From: Actinomycetes bacterium | GTDB taxonomy: Bacteria; Actinomycetota; Actinomycetes; JAKEEW01 | Direction: 5' to 3' | Length of the DNA stretch: 46,528 bases | Assembly: GCA_036001885.1 (NCBI GenBank) | Contig: DASYTV010000008.1 | Span: forward strand, 1-46,528 | Part shown: one piece after another, positions 7,423 through 14,482 of the stretch | Numbering within the stretch: position 1 is the stretch's first letter | Layout: each line of letters starts with the position of its first letter | Translations under genes and position numbers: made by a program | The notes under the pieces: generated by a model | What the model was told of the DNA's origin: nothing | Seen by the model: the letters and a program-made list of their open reading frames with translations, nothing else | Databases searched by the model: none

Positions 7423-7836
7423 CTAGCGCTCGAGTTCCTGGCGCGCTCGATCGACGAGCTGTCTCGACCAGCGCACGGAGTCACGAGCCTTCCGCGGACT
7501 TAGAACCATGGCGCCGTAGTGGGCTTCATCCTTGACGTCGATCAGACGAAGGAATGTCGCGGCCACCTTCGCACCGTCCGGCGTGGATTGTTCAAGCAGT
7601 GACGAGGCCGCGCGGTGGTCGTCGCCGCGGTGGATCTGGCCAAGTCGACGCGCGCAGATCGCATCCGAGGCCGCTACTCCGGCGAGCACTGCAAGGCCAG
7701 CAGCAACGCCACGGAATTCCGCTCGACCCCGTTCGTCGAGAACCAGATCCGCGACCTCAAGGTAAGCCTCCGCCGACCGCAGACGGCCGCGCGCATCGTG
7801 AAGACTCGCCGCTCTCGTCTGCTTGCGCTTAGCCAT
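7423..7836 (-). CDS. HEPN-domain protein (putative toxin of a HEPN/MNT pair)
   Basis: 137 aa from the ATG at 7836, with an 8-nt overlap (ATGGCTAA) with the stop of the upstream gene. The protein is predicted helical. 'ASDAICARRLGQIHRGDDH' contains an Rx4-6H HEPN motif. Confidence 0.6.
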   Translation of the reverse strand: MAKRKQTRAASLHDARGRLRSAEAYLEVADLVLDERGRAEFRGVAAGLAVLAGVAASDAICARRLGQIHRGDDHRAASSLLEQSTPDGAKVAATFLRLIDVKDEAHYGAMVLSPRKARDSVRWSRQLVDRARQELER

Positions 7837-8542
7837 TCGCTGCCTCGACTGCCCGCGAGGACGCCATGGCGTCCGACCTGATGAGTTCGATGCCGTCGCG
7901 CTGAATCTCTGCGAGCAACGGCTGATGTGCCTTGGCCCGGTGACGCCACTCTTGGAAGGACAGGTCGACAACCTGGAGTGGGTTACCTGTCCAGCGCGGA
8001 ACCAGGTTCCTCAAGCGGTCGACCTGACTCTGCCATTGCCCGGCGGCTTCTGGACCGCCGGGCGGAGCGCCGAGGGCATCGGCGAGCTGGGAGACGACGC
8101 TGGGCGACAGTCGCGGTGGCTTCTTCTCACCCGCCAAGGGCGGATGAACCAGGAGGAGGTCGATGTCGCTCGTCTCGTCGCCGTCACCTCTCGCGGCGGA
8201 GCCGAAGACGCACGCGTACAAGGGCCGCGGCCGCCAACCCGCAAGTTCTTCACGGAATCGCCGCCACAGCTCGGGGCGAAGGTTCGCAAGCATGTCAGCC
8301 ACACCGGCCGCGACGTGCTCGCGGTTGAGCTCATGGACCAGGTTGCGGCCCATCATTGTGGCGTGGACAATGCCTTGCTCGACCAACCGCGCGAGGCTGC
8401 GCCGGATTCCTATTTCGGACCCTCGCACAGCCTGATCGGCGACCTGGCCGACCGTAAGCGGCTTGCCTGCAACTGCGAGCACCGCGAGAACCGTACCGTC
8501 CAGGGTAGGGGTGACACTACGTGTCGGATCAGATAGATCCAT
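7829..8542 (-). CDS. winged-HTH + minimal nucleotidyltransferase (MNT-like, putative antitoxin)
   Basis: N-terminal wHTH 'LTVGQVADQAVRGSEIGIRRSLARLVEQGIV'. Polymerase-beta-type NTase signature 'FGSAARGDGDETSDIDLLLV' (GS...DxD). Confidence 0.7.
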   Translation of the reverse strand: MDLSDPTRSVTPTLDGTVLAVLAVAGKPLTVGQVADQAVRGSEIGIRRSLARLVEQGIVHATMMGRNLVHELNREHVAAGVADMLANLRPELWRRFREELAGWRPRPLYACVFGSAARGDGDETSDIDLLLVHPPLAGEKKPPRLSPSVVSQLADALGAPPGGPEAAGQWQSQVDRLRNLVPRWTGNPLQVVDLSFQEWRHRAKAHQPLLAEIQRDGIELIRSDAMASSRAVEAANG

Positions 8543-8600
8543 ATCAAATATTGTACGGAGCTATCTTATTAGATACCAGCCTAGTTAAACGTGACGCTAT
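8543..8600 (-). promoter_or_regulatory. AT-rich promoter/operator region of the MNT-HEPN pair
   Basis: This is the most AT-rich stretch seen in the window. It holds the inverted repeat TATCT-TATT-AGATA (8562-8575), and a further AGATA lies at 8531-8535, directly upstream of the wHTH gene start. Confidence 0.3.
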
Positions 8601-8646
8601 GCGACTTGGCCGAAACCGCACTCTTTGACGGGCTCGCAGCAGGACA

Positions 8647-8856
8647 TCACCCATAGGTCGAGTTGAGATCGGGGAGAAGTCCGAGCAGCTCCTCCATTGC
8701 CTGCATGTACTGCTCGGCGCCACGGACAGTCCTCGCGCCAGGCCAATAGCCGACGACGTCGTCGGTAATGATCGACGGGATGTACGTCAAATCGGGGACG
8801 CTGGACGTGGGCGTCGGCCAAACCGTCCACCCCGCCGGCCAAACCGCCAGCGTCAT
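8647..8856 (-). pseudogene. NTF2/SnoaL-like domain fragment (N-terminal half only)
   Basis: 'IITDDVVGYWPGARTVRGAEQYMQAMEELLGLLPDLN' resembles the first half of SnoaL/NTF2-like proteins. The ORF stops after 69 aa and no continuation exists in any frame. Confidence 0.4.
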
Positions 8857-8929
8857 TTGTGGCCGGTGTCATTGCAGTCGCCTTTCGCCGCCGCTATCCC
8901 TGAGCGCTCCAGCATCGCCCGGCTCCCTC

Positions 8930-10429
8930 TCACGCCAGGTCGAGCGTCCGATCGACACCTTTTCGCCAGGCGGCGACACCGCGAGCGCGTTCATCCTCGC
9001 CCATCTGAGATTGCCAGCGGCGGGTGATCGTGTACTTGGCACGCAGCTCGTCGAGGCCTGACCAGAATCCGGTTGCAAGCCCCGCGGCAAAGGCGGCGCC
9101 GGTGGCGGTCATCTCGGTGACGGCGGGGACCGCCACCGGAGAGCCGAGAATGTCGGCTTGGAACTGCATCAGCAGGTCGTTCTGGGTCATGCCTCCGTCC
9201 ACGCGCAACTCCCCGAGCTGCGCGAGTCCCGTGTCGGCGAGCATGGCCTGCGCCAGGTCATACGTTTGGTACGCGGTCGCCTCCAGCGCAGCCCGCGCAA
9301 TGTGTCCCTTGGTGGCGAAACGCGTCAGGCCGACGATCACGCCGCGCGCGTCGTCGCGCCAGTACGGTGCGAACAAACCGGAGAAGGCAGGAACGAAGAC
9401 CACGCCTGCTGAGCCATCGACCGAACGTGCGAGGGCCTCGACCTCACGAGCGTCGTCGATGATTCCGAGGTTGTCACGCAGCCATTGGACAAGCGCGCCG
9501 GCCATGGCGACCGAGCCCTCGAGGGCGTAGACCGGGTCCGCATCGCCGAGCTTCCACGCGACCGTCGTGACCAGGCCGTGCTTGGACATCAGCGGTTCGT
9601 TCCCCAGCGTGAAGAGCAGGAAGGCGCCGGTGCCGTAGGTGTTCTTCATGTCGCCGTGGTCGAAGCAGGTGTGCCCGAACAGCGAAGCCTGCTGGTCGCC
9701 GAGGATGCTCGCGACAGGCACGCCGGCCAAATCGCCGACCGCCGTGCCGTACACCTCGCTGGACGAGCGGATCTCCGGAAGACCCTGACGCGGGATCTCC
9801 ATCACGTCGAGGAGGTCTTCGTCCCATTCGAGCGTCTGCAGGTTCATCAAGAGGGTCCGGCTTGCGTTGGTCGGATCGGTGGCGTGCACCCCTCCCTCAG
9901 GACCCCCTGTGAGGTTCCAGAGGAGCCACGAGTCCGGCGTGCCGAAGAGAAGCTCCCCGCGTCTGGCCGCCTCCCGCCTGGTTGGGTCTTGGTCGAGCAG
10001 CCAGGCAAGCTTCAGTGCAGACGAATACGTCGAGATCGGCAGGCCGGTCCGCTGCTGGAACCGATGGATGCCTCCGTCGGCCGCGAGCGCGTCGGCCGCG
10101 GCGGCCGTACGTGTGTCCTGCCAAGTGATAGACCTGGCAACCGGGCGTCCCGTCCGTCGGTCCCAGAGGACAGCGCTCTCGCGTTCGTTCGTGATTCCGA
10201 TTCCCGCCACGTCCGCCGACGAGGCGCCCGTCGAGCCGAGCGCCTCGTGGATGCACTCCTGGGTTCGCTTCCAGACCTCGTCCATGTCGAGCTCGACCCA
10301 CCCCGGCCTTGGGTAGTACATGGTTTGAGCGCGTTGAGCAGTCGCGATTGGGCGGCCTTCCCCGCTGAAGAGCATGCAGCGCGTGCTGGTGGTGCCGTGG
10401 TCGATCGCTGCCACGAACTTGGCGGCCAT
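8930..10429 (-). CDS. glpK: glycerol kinase
   Basis: 499 aa. 'FVAAIDHGTTSTRCMLF', 'GWVELD', 'ITNERESAVLWDRRTGRP' and 'GTGAFLL' are collinear with the bacterial GlpK (FGGY) family. Confidence 0.95.
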   Translation of the reverse strand: MAAKFVAAIDHGTTSTRCMLFSGEGRPIATAQRAQTMYYPRPGWVELDMDEVWKRTQECIHEALGSTGASSADVAGIGITNERESAVLWDRRTGRPVARSITWQDTRTAAAADALAADGGIHRFQQRTGLPISTYSSALKLAWLLDQDPTRREAARRGELLFGTPDSWLLWNLTGGPEGGVHATDPTNASRTLLMNLQTLEWDEDLLDVMEIPRQGLPEIRSSSEVYGTAVGDLAGVPVASILGDQQASLFGHTCFDHGDMKNTYGTGAFLLFTLGNEPLMSKHGLVTTVAWKLGDADPVYALEGSVAMAGALVQWLRDNLGIIDDAREVEALARSVDGSAGVVFVPAFSGLFAPYWRDDARGVIVGLTRFATKGHIARAALEATAYQTYDLAQAMLADTGLAQLGELRVDGGMTQNDLLMQFQADILGSPVAVPAVTEMTATGAAFAAGLATGFWSGLDELRAKYTITRRWQSQMGEDERARGVAAWRKGVDRTLDLA

Positions 10430-10432
10430 CGC

Positions 10433-11410
10433 TCAGGCATCCTTCTGGATCAGTTTCCGGGCCGGTGTGGCTCGGGCCGCCTCGCCGTCCGCAGTCGGTG
10501 TCGCCGCAGAGGGCGCCTCCGATTGCAGTTGCACCTTCGCGGCATTGAGGTCACGGAGTGCATCGTCGCTGAGGGTTGGGTACTGCGGGTCGATGTCGAT
10601 CAGCGTGTGCGCAATTACTGCGCCGGCCGCGATGCGCGCAAACCACTTGCGGTCGGCAGGGATCACGTACCAAGGCGCCCACGCGGTGGCGGTGTGACTG
10701 AACATCTCCGAGAACGCCTCCTGGTAGGCATCCCACGACCGGCGCTCCTCCACGTCGTGCGAAGAGAACTTCCAGTTGTGGTCGGGGAGATCGATGCGCC
10801 TGAGGAAGCGGAGGCGCTGCTCCTCTTTCGAGAGATTCAGGAAGAGCTTGACGATCCGGAACCCGTTCTCGGACAGGTACTGCTCCCAGTCGTTGATCGC
10901 TTCGTACCTGCGTTTCCAGACATGATGTCCGCGTGTCTCGGCCGGGAGCTTTTGGCGCAGGAGGTTCTCCGGGTGCACCCGGACGACCAGCACCTCCTCG
11001 TAGTGCGACCGGTTGAAGATGCCGATCTCGCCGCGCGATGGCAGGCGTTTCTGGTAGCGGCGCAAGAAGTCCTGGTTGAGCTCGAGCGCCGAGGGGACCT
11101 TGAAGCTCTCGACCCGCACGCCCTGCGGGTTGAGGCCGCTCATCACATGGCGGATCGTCCCGTCCTTGCCCGCCGCATCGAGCGCTTGAAGCACAACCAG
11201 GACGCCGTACGTGTCCTGAGCAGCGAGCCGCGCCTGGTAATTCACAAGGAGCTCGATGCCCTCGTTCAGCAGTGCGACCCCGTCCTTCTTCCTCTTGACC
11301 CCTCCTTCGAACGCGGGATCGAAGTCCTTCGCCAGATTCACCCTCGAGCCAGGGCTGACTCGGAACGGTTCGATAAAGCGCGCGATTCGACTCGATGCGT
11401 CGTCGATCAT
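10433..11410 (-). CDS. ppk2: polyphosphate kinase 2 family (polyphosphate:nucleotide phosphotransferase)
   Basis: 'VLVVLQALDAAGKDGTIRHVMSGLNPQG' (Walker A-like) and 'FNRSHYEEVLVVRVH' match the PPK2 domain. The stop lies 3 nt from the glpK start. Confidence 0.9.
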   Translation of the reverse strand: MIDDASSRIARFIEPFRVSPGSRVNLAKDFDPAFEGGVKRKKDGVALLNEGIELLVNYQARLAAQDTYGVLVVLQALDAAGKDGTIRHVMSGLNPQGVRVESFKVPSALELNQDFLRRYQKRLPSRGEIGIFNRSHYEEVLVVRVHPENLLRQKLPAETRGHHVWKRRYEAINDWEQYLSENGFRIVKLFLNLSKEEQRLRFLRRIDLPDHNWKFSSHDVEERRSWDAYQEAFSEMFSHTATAWAPWYVIPADRKWFARIAAGAVIAHTLIDIDPQYPTLSDDALRDLNAAKVQLQSEAPSAATPTADGEAARATPARKLIQKDA

Positions 11411-11454
11411 GCGTCAACGCTAGCGCTGGTCGATGCTGTGCGAATCGGTGCAAA

Positions 11455-11640
11455 GTGCCGAACAGTTGCGGAGACCGCGCGTCGAATCGCCTCGCGAGTT
11501 CAAAACCCGACGAGATCGACCTGCACATCGCGCCGGTGCTACTCGGCGATGGGATCCGGCGGTTCGACAACCCCGGGCCCCGGCGACGTCGGACGCGTTA
11601 AGCGCTGGGCTGGCGTTATAGCAGGTTCGCGCGTCGCAAT
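11455..11640 (+). pseudogene. RibD C-terminal / dihydrofolate-reductase-like family fragment
   Basis: '..LASSKPDEIDLHIAPVLLGDGIRRFDNPGPGDV..' matches only the last ~45 aa of RibD_C-type reductases. It needs a frame change, has no N-terminal part, and is overlapped by the convergent 11616 gene. Confidence 0.4.
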
Positions 11641-12623
11641 CGACGCCCCGCCCACAGCCCGACCGGCAGCGGCAGCCAATACGTCGCCGCCCGAAAGATG
11701 ATCACGGAGAGCAGCGCGGAGCCCGAACTGTACCCCCCGAGCACCAACCCGCCGATGAGCGCCGCCTCGGTGACACCGAGGAAGGGTGGCAATGGGGTCG
11801 CGCCCCCGGCCGCGGCCGCGACCAGGTAGATCGCCACCAGCGCGCCGGCGGGCAACGCAGTCATGGCGTGACCCCAGACGTCGACGACGGCGACGAACCC
11901 GGCACTCATCGCCACCGTGGTGGTCATCGATGCAGCGGTCGCCGCAATGACCCGGCGTGGCCGGACCGCAAGGGCGCGCATATGCGCCACGGCGTGCCTG
12001 GTTCCGCGAGCAATACCGGCCATCGCCCGTCCGCGCGAGCGCAGGAGGACAACGGTGGCCAGCACGGCCACGGCTGCCACCAGCACCCAGGGGTTCCGCT
12101 GTCCAGCACGCAGCCCATCCGCGGTCAGAGCGTGTAGTTCCCGAGTGGCCCCGGCGAGTCCGATCGCTGGACCAATGGCGGTGACCGCACCGACGCACAA
12201 CGCATCGGTGGCAGCCCCGACCACACCGAGTGCCGCCACCGCACTCGTGGCGGCGCCGGGAGTAAGGCCGGCCCGCAGCAGGTACCGCAGGTTGACCACG
12301 GCTCCGCCGATCCCGTTCGGCACCATCCGGTTCACCGCGCCGGCGGCGAACTGCACGAACGTGGTCGGCCCAAGCGGGAGCCGTTCGTCACTGACCGCGC
12401 GGAGCGCGAACGCCGCGCTGATGTAGTGGATCGCAACCACCAGCGGCAGCAGCAGCATCGCCGAGATGGCCGGCCATGGCACGTGCGACAACATCTCTGT
12501 GGTGCTGTCGGCGCGATCTTCGCTAACCACCGTCCAGACAGCGAGCGCGGTGGCCGTGATGAGGCTCGCCGTCAGCACGGATTCGGGGCGTGCGGCGACT
12601 CGAGCTGCCTGGCTCCCCCGCAT
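11616..12623 (-). CDS. flippase-like / lysylphosphatidylglycerol-synthase TM-region family membrane protein (UPF0104)
   Basis: Multi-TM. 'NRMVPNGIGGAVVNLRYL' and the C-terminal 'GGATPLPPFLGVTEAALIGGLVLGG...IIFRAATYWLPLPVG' fit the LPG_synthase_TM pattern. The ATG at 12623 is preceded by GGGAGAG; the track's start at 12635 is a TTG. Confidence 0.65.
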   Translation of the reverse strand: MRGSQAARVAARPESVLTASLITATALAVWTVVSEDRADSTTEMLSHVPWPAISAMLLLPLVVAIHYISAAFALRAVSDERLPLGPTTFVQFAAGAVNRMVPNGIGGAVVNLRYLLRAGLTPGAATSAVAALGVVGAATDALCVGAVTAIGPAIGLAGATRELHALTADGLRAGQRNPWVLVAAVAVLATVVLLRSRGRAMAGIARGTRHAVAHMRALAVRPRRVIAATAASMTTTVAMSAGFVAVVDVWGHAMTALPAGALVAIYLVAAAAGGATPLPPFLGVTEAALIGGLVLGGYSSGSALLSVIIFRAATYWLPLPVGLWAGRRLRRANLL

Positions 12624-12699
12624 CTGCTCTCCCAACGCGATTAGCAGTCTGCGGTGTAACTATGTCTGCTCAGCCTGAGAGAAACCTGTGAGACGACGG

Positions 12700-12925
12700 C
12701 TTACTCCTGGTGGCAGCCGTGCTGGCTCCTAGGCGAATACGAGGGGTAGCGCGAGCAAGGCGCTCGCACATGGCCTGCGTGCCCGGCTGCCTCCGAAGCG
12801 CCCGTGGCATCCGGTAAGCAAAGCCCCCTCCGGTCAGGGAAGGGGCTCCCGACTTGGTAGCGGGGGTGGGATTGAACCCGCGACTGCCCTAGGGCCAGAT
12901 CGGCATGTGCACCGATCCTGCAGTG
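12700..12925 (-). promoter_or_regulatory. candidate structured leader RNA (cobalamin-riboswitch-like); alternative reading is a tRNA 3'-end relic
   Basis: On the minus strand: 'UAGGGCAGUCGCGGGUUCAAUCCCACCCCCGCUACCAAGUC' resembles the AGGGAA..GGUGxxAAUCC..CCCGCxACxGU core. A 10-bp stem runs AGCCCCUUCC/GGAGGGGGCU (12822-12847). 'UGCCACGG' follows. 'GAGCCAGCACGGCUGCCA' (12711-12728) matches 12 of 16 positions of the B12 box. The whole element is ~200 nt and ends ~90 nt upstream of the 12623 start. Confidence 0.35.
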
Positions 12926-12961
12926 GGAGGCCCGTCGGGCGGTGGGCGCGGGCATGGCGCC

Positions 12962-14452
12962 TTACAGGCCGGTTTGCGCGGTTAGCCGGCCCGAGTTCAC
13001 GGCCGCGGTGAACGCGTCGTAATCCCGCTCGTTCTGGTCGGCATAGGCCGCGGAGAAGTCCGCGATCGCCTGGTCGAAGGCATCTCCTTTGCCGAAATAT
13101 GAGGCGATGGCGATGCGGTCACCCCAGCGGGCGTGCGCACGGGCGAGGGTCGCCCCGCAGATGCGCGCGTACAGGGTGGCTCCCGGCCCCAGCAGATTGT
13201 CCACCTCCGCGCCACCTTTCCAGTCGTGGAACTGCCGCACGTAGTAGTCGCGGGTCACGCCGTCTAGCCCCTTGATGCGCTGCCAGCCCAGGAAGATGTC
13301 AGTCGCGGCCTGCATCAGCCGCTGGCCCGTCACGACCCGCTCACCGTGGTGGGCATACCGGCTCTTGCCGACGAACCGCTCAAGCACCGAGGCTTGCGCC
13401 TCTTTCACCTGCAGGAATAGCGGGTCGGCGTGGTCGCGGCCGAGCAGCAGCAGGATGTAGCAGCGGGTCCCGACGCTGCCCACGCCGACGACTTTGCGGG
13501 CGGCGTGGACGTAACTGAACTCCTCCACCGGATGGCCATGGCGGCCAAGGGTGCGCCGGTAGGAGGCGAGCAGCTTCTTGATCAGCGGAGCTGGGTCCTC
13601 CCACTCCGACCCCCGCGCGATGATGTCCTCGATCGGGACGATCAGCGGCGGGTCGGGCACGATCCGCAGCTCACCGCCGGACTCGCTGGCCCGCTTGGCG
13701 AACACTCGGGTGCTGTCGCGGGTGTAGGCCTCGGCTACGCGCCGCCTGGCCGTCCGCCGCTCCCTCTTGCTCACTCGCTTCACCCGGACCTCCTGGCGGA
13801 CCAGGTTCAGCAGCACGCCTGCTTCGAGCTGGTCGTACCATGCGTCCAGGGTCCCCATTCCAGCGGCCTGGCGCATGCGGCCCCGGTACTCGGCGACCCC
13901 AGCCATAACCACGGCCCGCCGGTCGGCGGGCGAGAAGCCCCGGGCACGGCCCATCACCTCGAAGCTCGCCGCCATCCGCTTGATGTCCCACTCCCACGGG
14001 CCGGGCAGAGTCTCGTCGAAGTCGTTGATGTCGAACAGCATCCGCCGTTCCGGCGTGCCGAACAGGCCGAAGTTCGACAGGTGAGCGTCCCCGCACAGCT
14101 GCGCGGTTATCCCCGACGCCGGGGTCCCCGCTAGGTCGGCGGCCATGATCAGCGCGGCGCCCCGGTAGAACGTGAACGGCGAAACCAGCATCCGCCCATA
14201 ACGGATCGGGACCAGCTCGGGCACCCGGCTGGCCGCCTGCTTTTCCAGCAGAGCGATCGGGTCCGGACGGTCTGGCGCGGGCTCCCACCGCCCGTGCGCC
14301 GCCCGTGGCACCTGCGCGCGGGCCTCCTTCCCCCTGGCGACCCGCTCCGCCACCGTCAGGTGCTCACGCCTCCACCTGGCCATGGACGGGGAAACCGGGG
14401 GGCCAGCGGCCCCCGCCTGGTCTGTCCCGGTCTGGTCCGCACTTATCACCAT
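12962..14452 (-). CDS. DUF2252 domain-containing protein
   Basis: 'GKEARAQVPRAAHGRWEP..RPDPIALLEKQAASRVPELVPIRYGRMLVSPFTFYRGAA' and 'CGDAHLSNFGLFGTPERRMLFDINDFDE' are characteristic of DUF2252. An alternative start is the ATG at 14383. Confidence 0.85.
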   Translation of the reverse strand: MVISADQTGTDQAGAAGPPVSPSMARWRREHLTVAERVARGKEARAQVPRAAHGRWEPAPDRPDPIALLEKQAASRVPELVPIRYGRMLVSPFTFYRGAALIMAADLAGTPASGITAQLCGDAHLSNFGLFGTPERRMLFDINDFDETLPGPWEWDIKRMAASFEVMGRARGFSPADRRAVVMAGVAEYRGRMRQAAGMGTLDAWYDQLEAGVLLNLVRQEVRVKRVSKRERRTARRRVAEAYTRDSTRVFAKRASESGGELRIVPDPPLIVPIEDIIARGSEWEDPAPLIKKLLASYRRTLGRHGHPVEEFSYVHAARKVVGVGSVGTRCYILLLLGRDHADPLFLQVKEAQASVLERFVGKSRYAHHGERVVTGQRLMQAATDIFLGWQRIKGLDGVTRDYYVRQFHDWKGGAEVDNLLGPGATLYARICGATLARAHARWGDRIAIASYFGKGDAFDQAIADFSAAYADQNERDYDAFTAAVNSGRLTAQTGL

Positions 14453-14482
14453 GTGTGCCTCCGACCGCCGCCCATGCTCCCC

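What the first reader, a model, noticed from the sequence alone, without database searches (positions are those of the whole stretch)
12636..12961. Highly structured ~200-nt element upstream of a flippase-like membrane protein: cobalamin-riboswitch-like, or a tRNA 3'-end relic
The 326-nt gap upstream of the 11616-12623 gene is unusually long for this window. Read on the minus strand it contains a T-loop-like hairpin GGG-UUCAAU-CCC followed by CCCCCGCUAC (compare the cobalamin core GGUGxxAAUCC..CCCGCxACxGU). It also holds a perfect 10-bp stem (12822-12847), 'UGCCACGG', and a 12/16 match to the B12 box (GAGCCAGCACGGCUGCCA, 12711-12728). Spacing and total length (~200 nt) are appropriate for that class. 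A CUCUC tract downstream could pair with the GGGAGAG Shine-Dalgarno. If real, it would place a UPF0104/LPG-synthase-TM-like protein in a B12 regulon, which I do not know to be described, and would make it a candidate corrinoid- or cobalt-related transporter. The competing reading is that GCGGGUUCAAUCCCAC-CCCCGCU-A-CCA (12855-12882) has the exact 5+7+1+3 geometry of a tRNA T-arm, acceptor and CCA end. That could be an integrase att-site relic marking an island edge.
Basis: partly seen in the sequence, partly recalled or inferred. Interest (0 to 1): 0.62.

Follow-up and report, generated by a model that had tools for sequence, protein, structure and literature searches.

The report
Decayed initiator-tRNA gene fragment, not riboswitch
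The gap holds no B12 riboswitch, only a dead 30-base leftover of the 3' end of an initiator tRNA-Met gene followed by a terminator-like hairpin, which is an ordinary scar of past DNA rearrangement at a tRNA locus.

Summary
Rfam finds nothing at gathering score, and no cobalamin-class hit even at E<=10. The gap folds little better than shuffles (z -1.9). Only the 69 nt next to the start codon are conserved upstream of the 87% orthologue. Strains 98% identical carry 1-nt indels and T-arm-breaking changes in the gap.

The competing reading is right. Window 12855-12884 (minus strand) matches the last 31 nt of the initiator tRNA-Met gene of the closest sequenced relative at 29 of 31 positions. The match runs from the T stem to CCA and has one T-loop deletion and one T-stem mismatch. 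No 5' half occurs anywhere in the window.

The fragment and its hairpin form a roughly 120-nt orphan piece between two synteny breakpoints. In the 87% relative, the intact tRNA-fMet gene lies 7 kb upstream of the orthologous membrane-protein gene on the same strand. Core genes lie on its 5' side and variable genes on its 3' side.

The piece is most likely the displaced 3' fragment of an old insertion at that tRNA. No integrase lies in the 46.5-kb window, so a live island edge is not shown. This is an ordinary, known kind of feature and of low interest.

The parts
12855..12884 (-). 30-nt 3' fragment of an initiator tRNA-Met (tRNA-fMet) gene. It covers the last variable-loop bases, the T arm, the 3' acceptor strand, the discriminator A and CCA. 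It has a 1-nt deletion in the T loop and a G->A change in the T stem. It is not a functional tRNA.
   Evidence: It matches 29 of 31 positions of tRNA positions 47-77 of L001 2896-2972. The best phage-database matches are annotated tRNA-Met. ARAGORN finds no tRNA in the window, and RF00005 is not listed even at E<=10. The 60 nt upstream are not tRNA-like (p=0.73). No 5' half occurs anywhere in the window. The T arm decays further in 3 of the 6 strains that are 98% identical.
12815..12847 (-). GC-rich hairpin with a 10-bp stem (one G.U pair) and a 6-nt loop, followed by UUGCUU. It is intrinsic-terminator-like and is probably the terminator of the DUF2252 transcript. It may originally have belonged to the tRNA gene.
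   Evidence: The terminator scan finds it. It folds at -21.7 kcal/mol in the window and a hairpin is kept in all six strains (-14.3 to -22.6 kcal/mol) although 25% of its columns vary. The function itself is inferred.
12889..12961 (-). 3' flank that travels with the DUF2252 gene.
   Evidence: It is homologous (82% over 12889-13057) to the DUF2252 3' flank of L141, which lies in a different genomic context. The homology stops at CCCTAG, 4 nt before the tRNA fragment.
12770..12814 (-). Spacer found only in the window's own strains. Together with the tRNA fragment and the hairpin it forms the roughly 120-nt orphan piece 12770-12888.
   Evidence: It is absent from the 93% relative L013, where homology resumes at 12769. 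It is present in the 98% strains.
12693..12769 (-). Upstream block shared only with the 93% relative. It holds the 'B12-box-like' string at 12711-12728.
   Evidence: It aligns with L013 but not with L001. Among the strains, 14% of its columns vary and there is a 1-nt indel inside the supposed B12 box.
12624..12692 (-). The only upstream block conserved with the gene in all three lineages. It is the inferred promoter (CATAGT -10-like hexamer), short 5' UTR and GGGAGAG Shine-Dalgarno of the UPF0104 gene.
   Evidence: It is 90% identical to L001-L004 and also conserved in L013. The promoter assignment is inference only; the sigma-70 consensus scan found none.
11616..12623 (-). UPF0104 / YbhN-like membrane protein gene (PF03706, LPG_synthase_TM), 335 aa.
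   Evidence: Pfam E = 1.3e-14. Orthologues of 335 aa have 99%, 93% and 87% identity.
12962..14452 (-). DUF2252 gene, 496 aa. Together with 12770-12961 it forms the 1.7-kb segment that the 93% relative lacks.
   Evidence: Pfam E = 8e-136. Window 12770-14481 is replaced by 4.26 kb of other genes in L013.

Best explanation
The element is a non-functional, decaying remnant of the 3' end of an initiator tRNA-Met gene, followed by a terminator-like hairpin.

[quoted passage not shown] The incoming DNA restored the gene. The original T arm, acceptor strand and CCA, with the native downstream hairpin, were pushed to the far end of the insert, next to the UPF0104 gene. The integrase was then lost or lies outside the window. 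Later rearrangements placed the DUF2252 gene against the fragment.

The fragment does nothing now. The hairpin probably terminates DUF2252 transcription. The UPF0104 gene is driven from its own 69-nt proximal region, so the tRNA-like piece is not in its leader.

Shown: the identity of the fragment, the lack of a 5' half, the breakpoints on both sides, the decay among strains, and the absence of any riboswitch signal. Inferred: the integrase-mediated origin, the terminator function and the promoter position.
For: Identity of the fragment:
- The match has a sharp 5' boundary at the start of the T stem and runs to CCA. This is the terminal-fragment signature used to map tDNA islands (PMC4383910).
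- The upstream 60 nt are unrelated to the tRNA 5' half, and the 5' half is absent from the window.

Position:
- In the 87% species the intact tRNA-fMet lies 7 kb upstream of the orthologous UPF0104 gene on the same strand.
- In that species conserved genes (UPF0182, PDZ-Lon, MoaE) lie on the tRNA's 5' side and variable genes on its 3' side.

Breakpoints:
- Homology to the 87% relative stops at 12692.
- Homology to the 93% relative stops at 12769 and resumes at 14482.
- The flank that travels with DUF2252 stops 4 nt before the fragment.

No selection on a fold:
- Among 98% strains, 9-25% of gap columns vary and there are 1-nt indels. In the two coding regions 2-2.5% vary and there are no indels.
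- The T arm is broken in 3 of the 6 strains.

The initiator-tRNA 3' end is a real integration target:
- Partial tRNA-fMet 3' ends occur in many viral contigs.
- One such fragment lies 110 nt from a Phage_integrase gene.

No riboswitch signal.
Against: - No integrase, excisionase, transposase or phage/conjugation gene was found among the window's main ORFs, including the 33.6 kb on the supposed island side.
- GC content is uniform.
- The intact tRNA-fMet of this genome was not found, so the direct-repeat partner is unproven.
- The DNA that abuts the fragment on its 5' side is an ordinary DUF2252 3' flank seen elsewhere (L141). It is not an integrase arm region. That junction is therefore secondary or was made by illegitimate recombination.
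- Neither relative shows a clean empty site. Their homology ends 85-160 nt short of the fragment.
Confidence: 0.6

Rival explanations
1. A truncated tRNA gene copy, not an att duplicate. A second tRNA-fMet gene, or the only one before a duplication, once stood here with its terminator. Illegitimate recombination then inserted or replaced DNA (the DUF2252 module) and removed everything 5' of the T stem. No integrase was involved.
For: The 5' junction joins the fragment to an ordinary chromosomal DUF2252 3' flank, with 4 unassigned bases (GGCA) between them. That looks like illegitimate joining rather than an attP arm. There is no integrase in the window. The GH65 to UPF0104 interval is replaced wholesale in the 93% relative without any att-like repeat.
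Against: The boundary at the start of the T stem and the extension to CCA are what integrase-made fragments look like (PMC4383910). In the sister species the tRNA-fMet locus has the classic layout of core genes on the 5' side and variable genes on the 3' side. The 87% species shows one tRNA-fMet in the roughly 40 kb seen around the locus, not two.
Confidence: 0.3
2. A cobalamin-class or other riboswitch or leader RNA in the 5' UTR of the UPF0104 gene, sensing a ligand and masking the Shine-Dalgarno sequence.
For: There are only loose string resemblances (GGGUUCAAUCCC..CCCGCUAC, a 12/16 'B12 box') and a long gap. A weak match to the unrelated rnk_pseudo leader reaches 25.4 bits against a gathering score of 55, E = 0.059.
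Against: No Rfam family reaches its gathering score. No cobalamin, AdoCbl or AdoCbl-variant hit appears at E<=10. The fold z-score is only -1.9. The region beyond 69 nt is not conserved upstream of the 87% orthologue, and beyond 146 nt not upstream of the 93% orthologue. There is no riboswitch upstream of the 62-64% orthologues either. Among 98% strains there are indels and stem-breaking changes, including inside the 'B12 box'. A terminator-like hairpin separates the piece from the gene. The 'T-loop-like hairpin' is fully explained as a tRNA T arm.
Confidence: 0.02
3. A retained functional tRNA-like element. It could be a secondary attB hot spot that drives the cassette exchange seen between the GH65 and UPF0104 genes, or a 3'-UTR processing signal for the DUF2252 mRNA.
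For: The interval carrying it differs in content among close relatives. The hairpin is kept in all strains.
Against: The T arm and acceptor bases drift and carry indels in sister strains. The 93% relative has a different cassette but no tRNA fragment at all. No integrase lies nearby. The 5' acceptor strand needed for a minihelix is absent.
Confidence: 0.05

Closest known systems
Displaced tDNA 3' fragments (attR-type direct repeats) of genomic islands and prophages integrated in tRNA genes, as catalogued by Islander (PMC4383910)
   Same: It is a terminal 3' fragment of a tRNA gene running to CCA, about 30 nt long and starting at the T stem (the 'T-stem region' class). It lies in an intergenic region at a synteny breakpoint. 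In the sister species the cognate tRNA is upstream in the same orientation.
   Different: No integrase lies in the 33.6 kb available on the island side. The cognate intact tRNA of the same genome has not been seen. The fragment is mutated (one deletion, one substitution). Its 5' neighbour is an ordinary gene flank rather than an attP arm.
Bacterial initiator tRNA-Met gene (tRNA-fMet; Rfam RF00005)
   Same: The last 31 nt are 29/31 identical to the gene in the closest relative. That gene has the 1:72 mismatch and three G-C pairs in the anticodon stem, read directly from the sequence.
   Different: Only the 3' 40% is present. There is no D arm, anticodon arm or 5' acceptor strand. ARAGORN and the Rfam tRNA model do not detect it.
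Cobalamin riboswitch (Rfam RF00174 and AdoCbl variants)
   Same: Only short string resemblances and a comparable length.
   Different: There is no covariance-model match at any threshold tried, no conserved B12 box and no conservation with the downstream gene. The piece lies upstream of a terminator-like hairpin and of the conserved promoter-proximal block.
Rho-independent (intrinsic) terminators
   Same: It has a GC-rich 10-bp stem, a 6-nt loop and a short U-rich tail, and lies 114 nt after the DUF2252 stop codon.
   Different: The U tract is short and interrupted (UUUGCUU), which I recall is common in high-GC actinobacteria. Termination was not measured.

Membership tests
Cobalamin riboswitch (RF00174 / AdoCbl variants) | Covariance-model score at or above the Rfam gathering threshold | tested here: not met
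   There are no matches at gathering score in the whole window. No cobalamin-class model is listed even at E<=10 on 12400-13200 with permissive filters.
Cobalamin riboswitch (RF00174 / AdoCbl variants) | Conserved B12 box and core, kept among relatives | tested here: not met
   The 'B12 box' string differs by a 1-nt indel from all six 98% strains and from L013. It is not alignable in L001.
Cobalamin riboswitch (RF00174 / AdoCbl variants) | Conserved in the 5' leader of orthologous genes | tested here: not met
   Only 69 nt (87% orthologue) or 146 nt (93% orthologue) upstream of the ATG are shared. No Rfam riboswitch is found in the orthologous loci L001, L011, L012 and L013.
Functional tRNA gene (RF00005) | Complete cloverleaf detected by tRNA finders | tested here: not met
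   ARAGORN finds 0 genes in the window. RF00005 is not listed at E<=10. The 5' 46 nt are absent.
tDNA island scar (Islander criteria, PMC4383910) | Fragment is a terminal (3'-end) piece of a tDNA, not an internal one | tested here: met
   The alignment covers tRNA positions 47-77 up to the terminal CCA.
tDNA island scar (Islander criteria, PMC4383910) | Fragment does not overlap a conserved protein-coding domain | tested here: met
   It lies in the intergenic gap. The only overlapping ORF (12701-12955, 84 aa) has no Pfam hit and is broken by 1-nt indels in sister strains.
tDNA island scar (Islander criteria, PMC4383910) | Cognate full-length tDNA in the same replicon, upstream of the 3' fragment and in the same orientation, 2-200 kb away | not testable with these tools
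   There is no tRNA in the 46.5-kb window, and the rest of this genome was not retrievable. In the 87% species the tRNA-fMet is upstream of the orthologous gene in the same orientation, which is supportive but indirect.
tDNA island scar (Islander criteria, PMC4383910) | Tyrosine integrase gene inside the interval | tested here: not met
   No PF00589 hit or other mobility domain appears among 39 window ORFs scanned. Only the 33.6 kb of the interval that lies inside the window could be examined.
Intrinsic terminator | GC-rich stem-loop followed by a U-rich tract downstream of a gene | tested here: met
   The consensus scan finds it (2 overlapping sites against 0.3 expected). The hairpin folds at -21.7 kcal/mol and is kept in the strains. 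Activity was not measured.

The most novel reading that the evidence does not exclude
The tRNA-fMet fragment may be a still-recognised secondary attachment site. It would make the interval between the GH65 and UPF0104 genes a hot spot where unrelated gene cassettes are swapped among very close relatives. The two cassettes seen are DUF2252, and hemerythrin/Holin-X/DUF3618/hydrolase. The integrase would be supplied in trans from elsewhere in the genome.
Probability: 0.05. Interest if true: 0.4.

Novelty: new member of a known kind. Interest (0 to 1): 0.1.

Why it matters
It matters mainly as a correction. The UPF0104/LPG-synthase-TM-like gene should not be placed in a B12 regulon or proposed as a corrinoid or cobalt transporter on this evidence.

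The positive result is modest. A tRNA-fMet 3' fragment marks a variable junction in an uncultured soil actinobacterium. It hints that the genes from DUF2252/GH65 onward lie on the variable 3' side of the initiator-tRNA locus. Such scars are common and well described, so the finding has no wider consequence unless the fragment proves to be an active attachment site.

Tried and rejected
- Rfam at gathering score on the window and on five related loci, and at E<=10 on the region, gave no riboswitch. I rejected the rnk_pseudo hit (25 bits against a gathering score of 55). It is a Pseudomonas family and only aligns the two hairpins.
- I tested whether the 60 nt upstream of the fragment are a decayed tRNA 5' half. 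They are not (p = 0.73). I also searched the window and L013 for the 5' half and found only background scores.
- I looked for a second copy of the fragment in the window as a direct-repeat partner. There is none with up to 3 mismatches.
- I looked for repeats flanking the 1.7-kb window-specific segment and found only short chance-level repeats.
- I searched metagenome contigs for an intact tRNA-fMet followed by the window's downstream flank. There were 4 hits: three unrelated complete tRNAs sharing only AGTCGG, and one other orphan fragment. The flanks of L001's tRNA and of L018's fragment are not significantly similar to the window's (p = 0.14-0.19).
- I checked whether the fragment travels with DUF2252. 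It does not. The orthologues in L019, L020, L021, L141 and L142 lack it.
- I tried to reach the tRNA-fMet locus of the window's own lineage through the 199-aa neighbour gene. The only close hit lies on a 2.8-kb contig that ends before the tRNA.
- Metatranscriptome contigs (X12, X13) cover the gap at the same low depth as the genes and are unstranded, so they do not locate transcript ends.
- Exact look-ups of the window's own proteins found nothing.
- Searches of the plasmid and viral collections with the gap or its conserved spacer found nothing relevant.
- RNAalifold on the conserved 5' region gave a covariation term of 0.

Full report
**What is at the coordinates.** The gap 12624-12961 separates a DUF2252 gene (12962-14452) from a 335-aa PF03706 (LPG_synthase_TM / UPF0104, YbhN-like) gene (11616-12623). 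Both are on the minus strand. The tRNA-like string GTCGCGGGTTCAATCCCACCCCCGCTACCA occupies 12855-12884. It is unique in the window, and no match with up to 3 mismatches is expected by chance. A 10-bp hairpin (12838-12847 / 12822-12831, one G.U pair, 6-nt loop) followed by TTGCTT is flagged as terminator-like. The claim of unusual structure does not hold. The gap folds at -151.3 kcal/mol against -139.6 +/- 6.1 for dinucleotide shuffles (z = -1.9; 4 of 100 shuffles do as well). By my rough ORF map the gap length is not exceptional.

**Riboswitch reading.** cmscan of the whole window against Rfam 15 gives no match at gathering score. With permissive filters and E<=10 on 12400-13200, no cobalamin, AdoCbl-variant or other riboswitch model appears. 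The best hit is the unrelated Pseudomonas rnk leader at 25.4 bits (gathering score 55), which merely aligns two hairpins.

Orthologous loci were recovered at 99%, 93%, 87%, 64% and 62% protein identity.
- The 87% relative (L001-L004) shares only window 11604-12692, that is the gene plus 69 nt upstream.
- The 93% relative (L013) shares 11607-12769.
- The 62-64% relatives share only coding sequence, and no riboswitch is found in any of these loci.

Six metagenomic strains about 98% identical keep the whole gap, but it evolves fast there. In its sub-blocks upstream of 12692, 9-25% of columns vary (except the short 12770-12814 spacer, 2%) and 1-nt indels are scattered through them. The two coding regions vary at 2-2.5% with no indels. 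The supposed B12 box carries a C in the window that all six strains and L013 lack. The same indels rule out the 84-aa ORF 12701-12955 as a gene.

**tRNA reading.** ARAGORN finds no tRNA in the window. In the 87% relative it finds a tRNA-Met (CAT) at L001 2896-2972. Its sequence shows a 1:72 mismatch and three G-C pairs closing the anticodon stem, so it is an initiator tRNA. That assignment is read from the sequence using textbook identity elements.

The window fragment aligns to the last 31 nt of this gene at 29 identities, with one deleted T-loop base and one G->A change in the T stem. Independent BLAST hits in the phage collection fall on genes annotated tRNA-Met. The similarity ends sharply at the start of the T stem. 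The 60 nt upstream score no better than shuffles against the tRNA 5' half (p = 0.73). No 5' half exists anywhere in the window. In three of the six strains the T arm is degraded further (TCCC->AACC, plus indels). The element is therefore a dead 3' fragment of a tRNA-fMet gene.

**Context.** The fragment and hairpin form a roughly 120-nt orphan piece (12770-12888) bounded by breakpoints.
- Upstream, 12889-12961 belongs with DUF2252. It is homologous to the 3' flank of a DUF2252 orthologue in an unrelated context (L141). That homology stops at CCCTAG, 4 nt before the fragment. Other DUF2252 orthologues lack the fragment.
- Downstream, homology to the 93% relative resumes at 12769.
- In that relative the whole segment 12770-14481 (DUF2252, fragment and hairpin) is replaced by 4.26 kb encoding hemerythrin, Holin-X, DUF3618 and an alpha/beta hydrolase. 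The GH65 gene beyond it is shared.

In the 87% species the intact tRNA-fMet lies 7 kb upstream of the orthologous UPF0104 gene on the same strand. Conserved genes (two-component system, ABC transporter, UPF0182, PDZ-Lon, MoaE) lie on its 5' side. A variable set (HD, beta-propeller, amino-acid permease, glyoxalase, PycTM, EamA, DUF2461) lies on its 3' side. That is the usual layout of a tRNA integration hot spot.

**Mechanism.** Tyrosine integrases that target tRNA genes leave a regenerated tRNA at one end of the island and the displaced 3' fragment at the other end, in the same orientation, followed by the original downstream flank (PMC4383910). The window's fragment fits this as the displaced end. 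It is terminal, starts at the T stem, and is followed by a terminator hairpin and then the gene that neighbours the tRNA locus in the sister species.

Initiator-tRNA 3' ends are used this way. Of 121 matches to this 3' end in viral contigs, 39 lacked the exact initiator anticodon-loop string upstream. Some of these are clearly partial fragments preceded by non-tRNA sequence; others are complete divergent tRNAs or are cut by a contig end. One partial fragment lies 110 nt from a Phage_integrase gene. Another orphan fragment turned up in a metagenome contig (L018).

Several points count against a clean island.
- No integrase or other mobility gene is among the window's ORFs.
- GC content is flat.
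- The 5' junction abuts an ordinary gene flank.

I therefore put about 0.95 on 'tRNA-fMet 3' fragment', about 0.6 on an integration-derived scar later reshaped by rearrangements, and about 0.3 on simple truncation of a tRNA gene copy by illegitimate recombination.

The hairpin is kept in all strains (-14 to -23 kcal/mol) and most likely terminates DUF2252 transcription (inferred). The UPF0104 gene is most likely expressed from the conserved 69-nt block 12624-12692. This is inferred; the consensus promoter scan found nothing and the RNA contigs are uninformative.

**Verdict.** The favoured interpretation is refuted and the alternative is confirmed as to identity, but only circumstantially as an island edge. 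This is an ordinary instance of a well-known genomic scar, in an uncultured soil actinobacterium whose relatives are labelled Actinomycetes, Frankiales or Mycobacteriales MAGs. Interest is low.

Noticed in passing
window 7499-11603: There are indel hot spots downstream of the UPF0104 gene. Window 7758-11603 (an NTP_transf_2-like ORF, an FGGY sugar kinase and PPK2) is absent from the 87% relative, where the UPF0104 gene abuts the YCII, sigma-70/DUF6596 and MFS genes. Window 7499-8886 is absent from the 93% relative.
   Followed up: partly
window 12624-12670 (minus strand): A small hairpin, CCGCAgaCUGCU...AGCAGaUGCGG, would enclose the Shine-Dalgarno sequence and start codon of the UPF0104 gene. 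One pair changes on both sides (U-A to C-G) in the 87% relative. With five sequences this is too little to call.
   Followed up: no
L141 1-377: A bacterial RNase P RNA gene (RF00010, 241 bits, cut at the contig end) lies directly upstream of a DUF2252 orthologue in another actinobacterial contig.
   Followed up: no
L142 2092-7152 and 7183-12234: There is a tandem duplication of an FtsX/MacB permease, DUF2252 and Zn-ribbon module, giving two DUF2252 genes 5 kb apart.
   Followed up: no
L019 7031-7375 and L020 8144-9180: An 87-88% DUF2252 orthologue sits near a 114-aa Phage_integrase fragment and near IS110-type and ISAzo13-type transposase genes. DUF2252 genes therefore occur in mobile-element-rich regions elsewhere.
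   Followed up: no
L018 146-170 (minus strand): This is another orphan tRNA-fMet 3' fragment (GGCGGGTTCAAATCCCGCCCCCGCTACCA). It is preceded by AT-rich non-tRNA sequence and followed by a terminator-like hairpin, and ARAGORN finds no full tRNA. No integrase lies in the 3.1 kb held; a YaaC-like gene is nearby.
   Followed up: partly
L068 11560-12528: In a viral contig of 62% GC, a Phage_integrase gene lies 110 nt from a partial tRNA-fMet 3' end with an adjacent inverted copy of the T-arm sequence. This is a likely attP.
   Followed up: partly
window 11159-12353: The metatranscriptome contigs of runs X12 and X13 contain a joint linking 12353 to 11159 with 33 unplaced letters. This may be a chimeric contig or a strain variant.
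   Followed up: no
L012 4587-8101: The 62% UPF0104 orthologue also lies about 2 kb downstream of a tRNA cluster (Val, Gly, Cys, Val). This may be coincidence, or this gene family may tend to sit near tRNA loci.
   Followed up: no
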